Positions 45,447 through 61,350 of a stretch of 64,000 nucleotides of DNA are shown one piece after another; position 1 is the first letter of the stretch, and each line of letters opens with the position of its first letter. The notes below the pieces were generated by a model that saw only the letters and a list, made by a program, of their open reading frames with translations, was not told the DNA's origin and did no database searches. Position numbers and translations under genes: made by a program. Source of the DNA: Escherichia coli (lineage in GTDB: Bacteria > Pseudomonadota > Gammaproteobacteria > Enterobacterales > Enterobacteriaceae); assembly GCF_030384885.1 (NCBI RefSeq), contig NZ_CP128613.1; one strand, given 5' to 3'.

Positions 45447-46679
45447 ATGGCAAAGGTATCGCTGGAGAAAGACAAGATTAAGTTTCTGCTGGTAGAAGGC
45501 GTGCACCAAAAGGCGCTGGAAAGCCTTCGTGCAGCGGGTTACACCAACATCGAATTTCACAAAGGCGCGCTGGATGATGAACAATTAAAAGAATCCATCC
45601 GCGATGCCCACTTCATCGGCCTGCGATCCCGTACCCATCTGACTGAAGACGTGATCAACGCCGCAGAAAAACTGGTCGCTATTGGCTGTTTCTGTATCGG
45701 AACAAACCAGGTTGATCTGGATGCAGCTGCAAAACGCGGGATCCCGGTATTTAACGCACCGTTCTCTAATACGCGCTCTGTTGCGGAGCTGGTAATTGGC
45801 GAACTTCTGCTGCTATTGCGCGGCGTACCGGAAGCCAACGCTAAAGCGCACCGTGGTGTCTGGAACAAGCTGGCAGCTGGCTCTTTTGAAGCGCGCGGCA
45901 AAAAGCTGGGTATCATCGGCTATGGTCATATTGGTACACAGTTGGGCATTCTGGCTGAATCGCTGGGAATGTATGTTTACTTTTATGATATTGAAAACAA
46001 ACTACCGCTGGGCAACGCCACTCAGGTACAGCATCTTTCTGATCTGCTGAATATGAGCGATGTGGTGAGTTTGCATGTGCCAGAGAATCCGTCTACCAAA
46101 AATATGATGGGCGCGAAAGAGATTTCGCTAATGAAGCCCGGCTCGTTGCTGATTAATGCCTCGCGCGGAACGGTGGTGGATATTCCGGCACTGTGCGATG
46201 CGCTGGCAAGCAAGCACCTGGCTGGAGCGGCAATCGACGTATTCCCGACGGAACCGGCGACTAACAGCGATCCGTTTACCTCTCCGCTGTGCGAGTTCGA
46301 CAACGTCCTTCTGACGCCACATATTGGCGGTTCGACTCAGGAAGCACAGGAGAATATCGGCCTGGAAGTTGCAGGTAAATTAATCAAGTACTCTGACAAT
46401 GGCTCAACGCTCTCTGCGGTGAACTTCCCGGAAGTATCGCTGCCACTGCATGGTGGGCGTCGTCTGATGCACATCCACGAAAACCGTCCGGGCGTGCTAA
46501 CTGCGCTCAACAAAATTTTTGCCGAGCAGGGCGTCAACATCGCCGCGCAATATCTGCAAACTTCCGCCCAGATGGGTTATGTAGTTATTGATATTGAAGC
46601 CGACGAAGACGTTGCCGAAAAAGCTCTGCAGGCAATGAAAGCTATTCCGGGTACCATTCGCGCCCGTCTGCTGTACTAA
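45447..46679 (+). CDS. serA: D-3-phosphoglycerate dehydrogenase
   Basis: 410-aa ORF MAKVSLEKDKIKFLLVEGVHQKALESL; C-terminal ACT domain. Confidence 0.95.
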   Translation: MAKVSLEKDKIKFLLVEGVHQKALESLRAAGYTNIEFHKGALDDEQLKESIRDAHFIGLRSRTHLTEDVINAAEKLVAIGCFCIGTNQVDLDAAAKRGIPVFNAPFSNTRSVAELVIGELLLLLRGVPEANAKAHRGVWNKLAAGSFEARGKKLGIIGYGHIGTQLGILAESLGMYVYFYDIENKLPLGNATQVQHLSDLLNMSDVVSLHVPENPSTKNMMGAKEISLMKPGSLLINASRGTVVDIPALCDALASKHLAGAAIDVFPTEPATNSDPFTSPLCEFDNVLLTPHIGGSTQEAQENIGLEVAGKLIKYSDNGSTLSAVNFPEVSLPLHGGRRLMHIHENRPGVLTALNKIFAEQGVNIAAQYLQTSAQMGYVVIDIEADEDVAEKALQAMKAIPGTIRARLLY

Positions 46680-46698
46680 ATCCCCTTCTCTGAAAATC

Positions 46699-46731
46699 AA
46701 CGGGCAGATCACTGACTTGCCCGTTTTTTTA
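46699..46731 (+). terminator. Rho-independent terminator of serA
   Basis: cgggca...tgcccg hairpin followed by ttttttt. Confidence 0.6.
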
Positions 46732-46859
46732 TCCCTTCTCCACACCGTTGCCGCATTGCGCATTCTACTTTGCGAGTCTGCTCCAGAAAATAAATCAAAG
46801 TCAGATCAATGCGTTGTGTTTATTTAATGGGGATTTACGATGGCAGGGCAGCATGGGGC

Positions 46860-46995
46860 TGTAACGGTAAAGCCCTCACCGAAGCGAGGGCTTGAAGGAG
46901 AAGGGTTATGATGCGACTTGTCATCATACTGATTGTACTGTTACTCATAAGTTTCCCAGCTTATTAACAGTCAGTCACAGGGGAGGAGCAATCCT
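46860..46995 (-). ncRNA. sibC: Sib-family antisense RNA (SibC) opposite ibsC; boundaries approximate
   Basis: Placed from the known Sib/Ibs architecture (antisense RNA spans the toxin ORF and its RBS); ends not determined from sequence. Confidence 0.45.
46908..46967 (+). CDS. ibsC: Type I toxin IbsC (19-aa hydrophobic peptide)
   Basis: ATG at 46908, MMRLVIILIVLLLISFPAY, stop TAA 46965-46967; preceded by a gaaggag RBS; in the serA-ygfA spacer where the K-12 sibC/ibsC locus lies. Confidence 0.7.
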   Translation: MMRLVIILIVLLLISFPAY

Positions 46996-47067
46996 CCCTT
47001 ACCCTTACTCACTAAATTAGGTTAAAGAATCAACGATGTCAATCAGGGCGATGCAGGTGTGTCGCCC

Positions 47068-47670
47068 TCACCACTCCCAGACTTTCGACGGCGTAACTAC
47101 TGCAGGAAGTGGAATATCCCACTCTTCAACGGGGAGTTTTTCCACCAACTGACAATCATGCGCATAACCCACCGGTTGCATTTGATAGCGCTGCCAGTTT
47201 TGTAAGGTCCGATCATAAAAACCACCGCCCATTCCCAGGCGCTGACCGTACTCATCAAAGGCGACCAGCGGTGTGATCAACACGTCTAATCGGGAAAGGG
47301 GTAGCACGTCACGCACATCCAGTTTTGGCTCATGGATCTTCAACCAGTTCATCACCAGTTCGCTTTGCGGATGGTAATTCAGGAACAGCAAATTACCGGC
47401 ACTAAAGGGATGCAAAACTGGAAGATATACGCGCTTACCGGCGCGCCAGAGTTGTTCTATGAGTGGCTGGGTGTCGAGTTCGCCATCAAAAGAGAGGAAT
47501 ACAGCGACCGTATGTGCCATCACCACCGGGGGATAAGTCATCATCCGGGTAGCGGCTTGTTGACCCATTTCCTGCTGTTGTTCCGGCGTTAACGCACGAC
47601 GACGTTGCCGAATCATTTTGCGGATTTCTTGTCGGGATAATGTCAGTGGGATTTCTGGTAGTTGCGTCAT
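47068..47670 (-). CDS. ygfA: 5-formyltetrahydrofolate cyclo-ligase
   Basis: 200-aa ORF; located immediately downstream of ssrS as in E. coli. Confidence 0.85.
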   Translation of the reverse strand: MTQLPEIPLTLSRQEIRKMIRQRRRALTPEQQQEMGQQAATRMMTYPPVVMAHTVAVFLSFDGELDTQPLIEQLWRAGKRVYLPVLHPFSAGNLLFLNYHPQSELVMNWLKIHEPKLDVRDVLPLSRLDVLITPLVAFDEYGQRLGMGGGFYDRTLQNWQRYQMQPVGYAHDCQLVEKLPVEEWDIPLPAVVTPSKVWEW

Positions 47671-47688: not shown

Positions 47689-47874
47689 AGGGAATCTCCG
47701 AGATGCCGCCGCAGGCTGTAACCCTTGAACCCTTGGTTCAAGGTGAATGTGTCGTCACAGTTTTAAGGCTTCTCGGACGGACCGAGCATGCTCACCAACC
47801 GCGGAGCGCCACATTCTTGTGGTATGAAATATCGGCTCAGGGGACTGGCCCGCTTGCGAACATCTCAGAGAAAT
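47689..47874 (-). ncRNA. ssrS: 6S RNA
   Basis: Reverse complement reads AUUUCUCUGAGAUGUUCGCAAGCGGGCCAGUCCCCUGAGCCGAUAUUUCAUACCACAAGAAUGUGGCGCUCCGCGG...GGAGAUUCCCU, matching the E. coli 6S RNA from memory. Confidence 0.9.

Positions 47875-61170: not shown

Positions 61171-61350
<180 letters not shown>

What the first reader, a model, noticed from the sequence alone, without database searches (positions are those of the whole stretch)
46845..47000. Type I toxin-antitoxin locus ibsC/sibC in the serA-ygfA spacer
A 19-codon hydrophobic ORF MMRLVIILIVLLLISFPAY with a strong RBS lies in an otherwise non-coding spacer. Residue 17 is Pro where my recollection of the K-12 peptide has Ser, which may be a strain variant or a memory error. 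Ibs peptides are membrane-depolarising toxins repressed by the antisense Sib RNA on the opposite strand. The ORF is below the ORF-track cut-off.
Basis: partly seen in the sequence, partly recalled or inferred. Interest (0 to 1): 0.4.

Follow-up and report, generated by a model that had tools for sequence, protein, structure and literature searches.

The report
Known ibsC/sibC toxin-antitoxin locus
This is the well-known E. coli ibsC/sibC locus, a 19-residue membrane toxin gene silenced by an antisense small RNA, and the proline at residue 17 is a common natural allele, not an error.

Summary
The observation and the interpretation both hold. The ORF at 46908..46967 (+) translates to MMRLVIILIVLLLISFPAY, with an AAGGAG Shine-Dalgarno sequence 7 nt upstream. 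It lies in the serA-fau(ygfA) spacer. On the opposite strand, Rfam SIB_RNA (RF00113) matches 47042..46892 at 139.8 bits (gathering score 56, E 8e-29).

The 195-nt core is present at 95% identity or more in 5424 of 5426 complete E. coli genomes. RefSeq annotates it as ibsC. Fourteen of the genomes listed have a spacer identical to the window.

Against K-12, the ORF differs only at codon 17: CCA (Pro) here, AGC (Ser) in K-12, with all three bases changed. Pro-type alleles occur in roughly 2900-2970 genomes and Ser-type alleles in roughly 2100-2170.

One detail is worth noting. This trinucleotide is SibC +49..+51, in the apical loop of TRD1. Han et al. 2010 mutated exactly these bases to retarget SibC to ibsD. 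It is also the most variable codon among the Ibs paralogues.

Because the antisense RNA is cis-encoded, toxin mRNA and antitoxin change together, so cognate pairing is kept. This is an already known, annotated locus of low interest.

The parts
46814..46841 (+). Putative ibsC promoter: -35 TTGTGT (46814..46819), 16-nt spacer, -10 TACGAT (46836..46841)
   Evidence: Inferred from the sequence and from the position of the start site. This stretch is identical to K-12. The simple promoter scan did not flag it because it matches only 7 of 12 consensus positions. Han et al. 2010 report conserved promoter elements upstream of the mapped ibsC 5' end, but they are shown only in a figure.
46848..47006 (+). 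ibsC mRNA (159 nt) by homology to the K-12 transcript
   Evidence: Han et al. 2010 describe a 159-nt ibsC mRNA with an 18-nt 5' overhang beyond the SibC 3' end. They also pair G50, G51 and G53 of ibsC with C110, C109 and C107 of SibC. Those bases are G at 46897, 46898 and 46900 here, which fixes +1 at 46848. The predicted fold is -64.2 kcal/mol, z -5.3.
46895..46900 (+). Shine-Dalgarno sequence AAGGAG, 7 nt upstream of the ATG
   Evidence: Read. It is unpaired in the predicted mRNA fold and complementary to SibC TRD2.
46908..46967 (+). ibsC ORF: 19 codons plus stop, MMRLVIILIVLLLISFPAY
   Evidence: Translation. The identical CDS is annotated ibsC (WP_071525914.1) in NZ_CP027579.1.
46956..46958 (+). 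Codon 17, CCA (Pro). This is the allele-defining trinucleotide and equals SibC +51..+49 (UGG on the antisense strand)
   Evidence: K-12 has AGC (Ser) and all 3 bases differ. In K-12 these bases are G49CU51 of SibC, the bases Han et al. changed to switch TRD1 specificity.
46866..47006 (-). SibC antisense RNA (141 nt), covering the whole ibsC ORF, its Shine-Dalgarno sequence and its start codon
   Evidence: Coordinates transferred from K-12 sibC b4446 through a gap-free alignment. Rfam SIB_RNA scores 139.8 bits. The predicted fold is -53.9 kcal/mol, z -4.8. Nine base pairs show compensatory changes among 8 Sib copies.
46939..46961 (-). TRD1 of SibC (+46..+68, P5 stem-loop), which pairs inside the ORF
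   Evidence: Positions from Han et al. 2010, mapped onto the window. The variable trinucleotide lies in the predicted apical loop.
46892..46908 (-). TRD2 of SibC (+99..+115, single-stranded J1/7 CUCCUUC), which pairs with the ibsC Shine-Dalgarno sequence and start region
   Evidence: Positions from Han et al. 2010. Identical to K-12. +107..+113 are unpaired in the fold.
46870..46893 (-). SibC terminator hairpin (P7), followed by UACC
   Evidence: It forms a 10-bp stem with a UUCG loop in the fold. Compensatory changes occur among the paralogues. The terminator scan did not flag it because the U tail is short.
47014..47042 (-). sibC promoter: -35 TTGACA (47042..47037), 17-nt spacer, -10 TAATTT (47019..47014), start at A 47006
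   Evidence: Read. The first 36 positions of the Rfam model cover this stretch. There is one spacer difference from K-12, at 47023. Sigma-S RNA polymerase binding at sibC was reported by ChIP-seq in K-12.
45447..46679 (+). serA (left flanking gene, context only)
   Evidence: ORF, annotation.
47068..47670 (-). fau/ygfA (right flanking gene, context only)
   Evidence: ORF, annotation.

Best explanation
This is the chromosomal type I toxin-antitoxin pair ibsC/sibC of E. coli.

The + strand makes a ~159-nt mRNA for a 19-residue hydrophobic inner-membrane peptide, IbsC. The - strand makes the 141-nt SibC RNA, which is perfectly complementary to the whole ORF and its ribosome-binding site.

SibC first contacts the mRNA through one of two independent recognition domains. 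TRD1 is a loop that pairs inside the ORF around codon 17. TRD2 is a single-stranded CUCCUUC that pairs with the Shine-Dalgarno sequence and start region. Pairing then spreads, translation is blocked and the duplex is degraded, so toxin is not made. If SibC is lost or outrun, IbsC inserts into the membrane, depolarises it and stops growth.

Shown here: the sequence identity, the anatomy, the RNA-family membership, the synteny and the population-wide conservation. Taken from published K-12 experiments, not tested in this strain: transcription of both strands, toxicity, and the two-domain recognition mechanism.

The Pro17 allele (CCA) differs from K-12 (AGC, Ser) at exactly the TRD1 loop trinucleotide. 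Because antitoxin and target are read from the same DNA, cognate pairing is preserved automatically.
For: - RNA family: Rfam SIB_RNA scores 139.8 bits against a gathering score of 56, E 8e-29, over the full model. It is the only family hit in the spacer.
- ORF: the translation is.
- Homology to K-12: the alignment is gap-free, with sibC b4446 and ibsC b4665 at the corresponding place between fau and serA.
- Annotation: the identical peptide is annotated IbsC in RefSeq.
- Conservation: the core locus is in 5424 of 5426 complete E. coli genomes at 95% identity or more.
- Structure: both RNAs fold much better than shuffled sequence (z -4.8 and -5.3). Nine pairs carry compensatory changes among 8 Sib copies.
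- Mechanism: TRD1/TRD2 are described in Han et al. 2010, PMC2943612. Toxicity, depolarisation and psp induction are summarised in PMC8309996.
- Pro at the equivalent position occurs naturally in K-12 IbsB and IbsE.
Against: - Nothing in the sequence argues against the identification.
- Expression and toxicity of this particular allele were not, and cannot be, tested with these tools.
- The primary papers on discovery (Fozo 2008) and on IbsC sequence requirements (Mok 2010) were not available in the library. The tolerance of position 17 to Pro therefore rests on natural paralogues and on allele frequency, not on a direct assay.
- The simple promoter and terminator scans flagged nothing in the spacer. 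This is explained by weak consensus matches, not by absence.
Confidence: 0.97

Rival explanations
1. The locus has the same identity, but the toxin acts differently. IbsC would not be a general membrane depolariser. It would bind specific membrane proteins, in particular the a and b subunits of the Fo sector of ATP synthase, block proton translocation and lower ATP.
For: A 2025 preprint reports this for the 19-residue Salmonella IbsA, encoded between yqiK and rfaE. It used a two-hybrid screen, proton-translocation assays and virulence phenotypes. Ibs peptides are closely related to one another.
Against: The preprint concerns a different paralogue in a different species. For E. coli IbsC the published data are depolarisation within minutes and psp induction. 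The two mechanisms are not mutually exclusive. Nothing in the sequence discriminates between them.
Confidence: 0.25
2. The Pro17 allele is a disabled toxin. The locus would persist only as an sRNA gene or a relic repeat (the old QUAD1c repeat), and the ORF would no longer matter.
For: Proline near the C-terminus of a short helix could in principle disturb it. Reviews state that C-terminal residues 6-19 are needed for IbsC toxicity.
Against: The ORF, its Shine-Dalgarno sequence and its start codon are intact. The exact 57-mer carrying CCA is present in 1767 genomes, and Pro-type alleles are about as common as, or more common than, the K-12 allele. K-12 IbsB and IbsE carry Pro at the same position, and IbsE is annotated as a toxic peptide. 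No frameshift or stop was seen in any of the sampled alleles.
Confidence: 0.03
3. The short ORF is a chance reading frame inside a structured non-coding RNA region.
For: A 19-codon ORF alone is weak evidence. Many short ORFs of similar size litter the region.
Against: The peptide is conserved across paralogues that differ at many nucleotide positions. All of them keep the MM(K/R)x-hydrophobic core-SFxxY* pattern and the same length to within one residue. There is a canonical Shine-Dalgarno sequence at the right spacing. Published experiments show translation-dependent toxicity.
Confidence: 0.01

Closest known systems
sibC/ibsC of E. coli K-12 MG1655 (b4446 / b4665; formerly RygC, QUAD1c)
   Same: It occupies the same spacer between serA and fau/ygfA with the same orientation and the same lengths (141-nt sRNA, 60-nt ORF). 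Over the 388-nt spacer, 379 positions are identical with no gaps. TRD2, the Shine-Dalgarno sequence, the start codon, the terminator and the promoter hexamers are all identical.
   Different: Codon 17 is CCA (Pro) instead of AGC (Ser), so SibC +49..+51 reads UGG instead of GCU in the TRD1 loop. One more SNP lies inside the SibC/ibsC overlap (46977 A versus T) and one in the sibC promoter spacer (47023).
Paralogous pairs sibA/ibsA, sibB/ibsB (yegL-mdtA spacer) and sibD/ibsD, sibE/ibsE (yqiK-hldE spacer)
   Same: They share the architecture, the RNA family, the 18-19-residue hydrophobic peptide ending SFxxY, and the secondary structure, with compensatory changes.
   Different: They sit at different chromosomal sites. 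They diverge in TRD1 and TRD2. Shared runs that overlap the TRD1 target are at most 14 nt with the copies of K-12 and of strain 2013C-4282 that were compared, against the 22-bp contiguous helix that allowed cross-recognition in Han et al.. The window's SibC should therefore stay specific for its own ibsC.
Salmonella Typhimurium IbsA/SibA
   Same: A 19-residue Ibs toxin with a fully overlapping Sib antisense RNA.
   Different: It is a single copy at yqiK-rfaE. It is reported to target Fo ATP synthase subunits and to affect virulence. Nothing equivalent is known for E. coli IbsC.
Other type I toxin-antitoxin systems of E. coli (tisB/IstR-1, shoB/OhsC, ldr/Rdl, hok/Sok, zor/Orz)
   Same: A small hydrophobic membrane toxin whose mRNA is silenced by an antisense RNA. 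Overexpression depolarises the membrane.
   Different: Sib overlaps the entire toxin ORF in cis. The others are divergently encoded or overlap only the 5' or 3' UTR. At 19 residues, Ibs peptides are short compared with the 26-29-residue ShoB and ZorO described in the same review. There is no sequence relationship to those families.

Membership tests
Sib RNA (Rfam RF00113) / Sib-Ibs type I toxin-antitoxin | The antisense RNA matches the SIB_RNA covariance model at or above its gathering score | tested here: met
   139.8 bits against 56, E 8e-29, model positions 1-147 of 147.
Sib RNA (Rfam RF00113) / Sib-Ibs type I toxin-antitoxin | An 18-19-codon hydrophobic ORF with a Shine-Dalgarno sequence lies on the opposite strand, wholly inside the sRNA | tested here: met
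   The ORF at 46908..46967 and the Shine-Dalgarno sequence at 46895..46900 lie inside SibC 47006..46866.
Sib RNA (Rfam RF00113) / Sib-Ibs type I toxin-antitoxin | The Ibs peptide signature (MM-basic-x, aliphatic core, C-terminal SFxxY) is shared with known Ibs toxins | tested here: met
   Compared with K-12 IbsA-E and with copies from strain 2013C-4282, E. albertii and Citrobacter. A profile search was not possible because the peptide is under 20 aa.
Sib RNA (Rfam RF00113) / Sib-Ibs type I toxin-antitoxin | The conserved Sib secondary structure is present: closing P1 stem, internal hairpins, single-stranded J1/7 and a terminator | tested here: met
   The minimum-free-energy fold reproduces it, z -4.8. 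The consensus fold of 8 copies has 9 pairs with compensatory changes. This is a small set of related sequences, so the support is modest on its own.
ibsC/sibC orthologue specifically (as opposed to another Sib copy) | The locus lies in the serA-fau(ygfA) spacer and carries C-type TRD2 and flanks | tested here: met
   Flanking genes. TRD2 and everything from 46866 to 46955 are identical to K-12 sibC.
ibsC/sibC orthologue specifically (as opposed to another Sib copy) | The TRD1 sequence is identical to K-12 SibC | tested here: not met
   +49..+51 reads UGG instead of GCU. This is an allelic difference within the orthologous locus, seen in about half of E. coli genomes. It is not grounds to exclude orthology.
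Type I toxin-antitoxin system (functional definition) | Both strands are transcribed, the peptide is toxic when expressed, and the antisense RNA represses it | not testable with these tools
   Published for K-12 ibsC/sibC. Not tested for the Pro17 allele.

The most novel reading that the evidence does not exclude
The two common E. coli alleles of this locus differ by a complete swap of the three bases in the TRD1 recognition loop: CCA/UGG against AGC/GCU. No intermediate turned up in the few genomes sampled. The AGC allele was seen on two different flanking haplotypes (K-12 and JJ1886). The same codon is the most variable position among all Ibs paralogues.

The most novel reading is that this trinucleotide is under diversifying selection, or is shuffled by gene conversion. 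That would keep the Sib/Ibs pairs of one genome orthogonal to each other, so that sibC alleles act as distinct specificity types and are not neutral variants.
Probability: 0.15. Interest if true: 0.3.

Novelty: already known. Interest (0 to 1): 0.08.

Why it matters
As an identification it adds nothing new. The locus has been characterised experimentally in K-12, has an Rfam family, and is annotated by PGAP in essentially every E. coli genome.

Its practical value is as a positive control. A first-pass reader working from raw sequence correctly found a 19-codon gene that falls below ORF-caller thresholds.

It sits exactly on the trinucleotide shown experimentally to set the target specificity of SibC TRD1. 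That makes natural sibC alleles a ready-made test of how cis-antisense specificity evolves among paralogous toxin-antitoxin pairs.

Tried and rejected
- The simple promoter and terminator scan of 46600..47150 returned nothing. The sibC -10 (TAATTT) and the ibsC hexamers fall below its thresholds. The SibC terminator has a short U tail. The serA terminator has an 11-nt loop. I do not count this as evidence against the locus.
Peptide-family membership was therefore judged by direct comparison.
- Fozo et al. 2008 and Mok et al. 2010 are not held in the paper library. I used Han 2010 and reviews instead.
- I spent the single genome-contig scan on a pattern that was too loose, AAGTTTCNNNNCTTAYTAA. 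Only 4 real Ibs ORFs came back: E. albertii (two) and two Citrobacter. All four lie next to hldE, and where yqiK was within the fetched stretch it flanked them too, so this is the ibsD/E site and none is a sibC orthologue. The ancestral state of codon 17 (Pro or Ser) therefore remains unresolved.
- A sequencing error at codon 17 was considered and rejected. The exact 57-mer occurs in 1767 complete genomes.
- A second Sib copy in the window was considered and rejected. There is only one hit at the gathering score over all 64 kb.
- Cross-talk of the window's SibC with non-cognate ibs mRNAs through the changed TRD1 was considered and rejected. Shared runs overlapping the TRD1 target remain 14 nt or shorter.

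Full report
**Observation.** The stretch 46845..47000 was read directly. An ORF at 46908..46967 on the + strand translates to MMRLVIILIVLLLISFPAY followed by a stop. AAGGAG lies at 46895..46900, 7 nt before the first of two in-frame ATGs. At 19 codons the ORF is below the 20-aa minimum of the ORF lister and does not appear in its output. It sits in a 388-nt spacer between a 410-aa ORF (45447..46679 +) and a 200-aa ORF (47670..47068 -). An identical RefSeq record annotates these as serA and fau, which is ygfA.

**More than chance.** A scan of the whole 64-kb window against Rfam at gathering thresholds gave three hits. One is SIB_RNA (RF00113) on the minus strand at 47042..46892. It scores 139.8 bits against a gathering score of 56, E 8e-29, and covers the whole model. 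A permissive scan of the spacer alone found no other family. The other two hits are 6S RNA (47874..47691) and a REP-like naRNA4 element (61255..61178). The 6S RNA lies next to fau and zapA, as in the annotated E. coli records.

**Comparison with known genomes.**
- The 388-nt spacer matches 5425 of 5426 complete E. coli genomes. Fourteen of the listed strains are 100% identical, and the feature under the match is annotated ibsC.
- The 195-nt core, from the ibsC start site to the sibC -35 box, is present at 95% identity or more in 5424 of 5426 genomes.
- In K-12 MG1655 the corresponding spacer carries sibC (b4446, 141 nt) and ibsC (b4665, 60 nt) between fau and serA.
- The window and K-12 spacers align without gaps, with 9 differences.
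- Transferring K-12 coordinates places SibC at 47006 to 46866 on the minus strand.

**Anatomy.**
- *sibC promoter.* Upstream of the SibC 5' end lie TTGACA (47042..47037), a 17-nt spacer and TAATTT (47019..47014). The Rfam seed evidently includes this promoter, which is why the model hit begins at 47042.
- *SibC fold.* SibC folds into a closing stem, three internal hairpins, a single-stranded CUCCUUC (+107..+113) and a 10-bp terminator hairpin. The energy is -53.9 kcal/mol, z -4.8 against shuffles.
- *Covariation.* A consensus fold of eight Sib copies used the window copy, K-12 A to E, and the two copies at the yqiK-hldE site of strain 2013C-4282. It keeps this structure, with nine pairs showing compensatory changes.
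- *ibsC start site.* Han et al. 2010 (PMC2943612) describe a 159-nt ibsC mRNA with an 18-nt 5' overhang beyond the SibC 3' end. They also report that G50, G51 and G53 of ibsC pair with C110, C109 and C107 of SibC.
- *Mapping onto the window.* This gives +1 at 46848, and the three bases are indeed G at 46897, 46898 and 46900, so the transfer is self-consistent.
- *ibsC promoter.* A weak promoter (TTGTGT, 16 nt, TACGAT) ends 6 nt before that start. I infer this from the sequence.
- *ibsC mRNA fold.* The predicted fold leaves the Shine-Dalgarno sequence unpaired and puts codon 17 in an apical hairpin loop.

**The residue-17 question.** K-12 ibsC translates to MMRLVIILIVLLLISFSAY, and the same sequence is used in the literature. 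The window differs from K-12 within the ORF only at codon 17: CCA against AGC, with all three bases different.
- A 57-mer centred on the codon is found exactly in 1767 complete genomes. It is found with 1-2 mismatches in 1201 and with 3-5 mismatches in 2112.
- The reciprocal K-12 57-mer gives 1548, 620 and 2881.
- Sampled genomes from the intermediate classes carry CCA with SNPs elsewhere (L004, L005). JJ1886 carries AGC on a different flanking haplotype.
- Pro-type alleles are therefore in about 2900-2970 genomes and Ser-type alleles in about 2100-2170. The remainder could not be resolved at this word size.

Pro17 is a common, possibly the majority, natural allele.

**What that trinucleotide is.** Han et al. 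defined two independent target-recognition domains in SibC. TRD1 is +46..+68 (the P5 loop) and pairs inside the ORF. TRD2 is +99..+115 (J1/7) and pairs with the translation initiation region. They changed G49CU51 to UGC, together with a TRD2 change, to retarget SibC to ibsD. SibC +49..+51 corresponds to window 46958..46956, which is exactly codon 17.

The window's SibC reads UGG there. This matches the Rfam consensus (GCuGgGaAa) and lies in the predicted apical loop. The same codon is the most variable one among the paralogues: CAG, CCC, AGC, GCA and CCG in K-12 IbsA to E, and CCG and CAG in the two yqiK-hldE copies of strain 2013C-4282.

Because Sib is cis-encoded, any change alters toxin mRNA and antitoxin together, so cognate pairing is untouched. 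I checked whether the new TRD1 creates cross-talk. Runs shared with non-cognate ibs sequences and overlapping the TRD1 target stay at 14 nt or fewer, for both same-strain and K-12 copies. Han et al. needed a contiguous 22-bp helix for cross-recognition. Pro at this position is also the natural residue in K-12 IbsB and IbsE, so a loss of toxicity is unlikely. This has not been tested directly.

**Mechanism.** The following rests on published K-12 work, not on anything computed here.
- SibC contacts the ibsC mRNA through TRD1 or TRD2, and pairing spreads from there. Han et al. suggest the final complex is an incomplete duplex. Repression results in degradation of the ibsC mRNA. RNase III cleavage of the duplex was shown in vitro.
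- Overproduced IbsC depolarises the membrane within minutes, lowers viability and induces the psp operon.
- Sigma-S RNA polymerase binds at sibC, with temperature-dependent effects on SibC levels.
- A recent preprint on Salmonella IbsA proposes a more specific target, the a and b subunits of Fo ATP synthase. I list this as a mechanistic rival. It does not change what the locus is.

**Comparison and novelty.** The locus meets every testable defining feature of the Sib/Ibs family and of the sibC/ibsC orthologue. The one exception is identity of the TRD1 loop to the K-12 allele, which is an allelic difference. The exact peptide already has a RefSeq accession annotated as IbsC. The finding is therefore already known.

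**Most novel reading not excluded.** The three-base swap on the TRD1 specificity determinant may reflect diversifying selection or gene conversion that maintains orthogonality among paralogous pairs. I give that about 15%.

**Dead ends.**
- The consensus promoter and terminator scan found nothing in the spacer. The reasons are weak consensus matches, explained under the anatomy above.
- Tools that need at least 20 residues could not take the peptide.
- Two primary papers were not available.
- My single scan of the species-level genome collection used a pattern that was too short. It returned mostly chance matches, plus four genuine Ibs ORFs that all lie next to hldE at the yqiK-hldE site.
- As a result, the ancestral state of codon 17 could not be determined.

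Noticed in passing
L010 13580..14101 (E. coli 2013C-4282, yqiK-hldE spacer): The two tandem Ibs/Sib copies of this strain are identical from -41 to +38 and from +58 to +99 relative to the ATG. They differ only in a ~19-nt block (+39..+57), which is the TRD1 target. The peptides are MMKFVIILIVLLLLSFPTY and MMKFVIILIVLLLVSFQAY. TRD2 is identical, so the two Sib RNAs might cross-repress through TRD2. The pattern looks like recent duplication or conversion, with only the TRD1 block kept distinct.
   Followed up: partly
window 47068..47670 (-): The fau/ygfA ORF is 200 aa here and in PGAP annotations of other strains. The K-12 MG1655 record annotates 549 nt (182 aa). This is a start-codon annotation difference, not a sequence difference that I examined.
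   Followed up: no
window 47046..47067: An inverted repeat, GGGCGA...TCGCCC, directly follows the fau stop codon on the minus strand and abuts the sibC -35 box. It is possibly the terminator of the ssrS-fau transcript, placed within a few bases of the sibC promoter. Two loop positions differ from K-12.
   Followed up: no
window 47691..47874 (-) and 61178..61255 (-): 6S RNA (ssrS, 138 bits) lies next to fau and zapA, as in the annotated E. coli records. There is also a REP-like naRNA4 element (69.8 bits).
   Followed up: no
window 46700..46730 (+): The serA terminator hairpin is ACGGGCA, an 11-nt loop, TGCCCGT, then a run of T. The terminator scan missed it because its loop limit is 8 nt.
   Followed up: no
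E. coli genome collection: One copy of the sibC/ibsC spacer lies on a record classed as a plasmid. One or two of the 5426 complete genomes lack the locus. About 6% of genomes carry alleles that the 57-mer searches did not capture.
   Followed up: no
window 46956..46958 compared with L002 and L006: The CCA-to-AGC difference can be written as three adjacent substitutions. It can equally be written as two compensating 2-nt indels: TTTC[CC]AGC--TT against TTTC--AGC[GC]TT. The AGC allele occurs on two different flanking haplotypes (K-12 and JJ1886), which hints at recombination or conversion and not at a single clonal event.
   Followed up: partly
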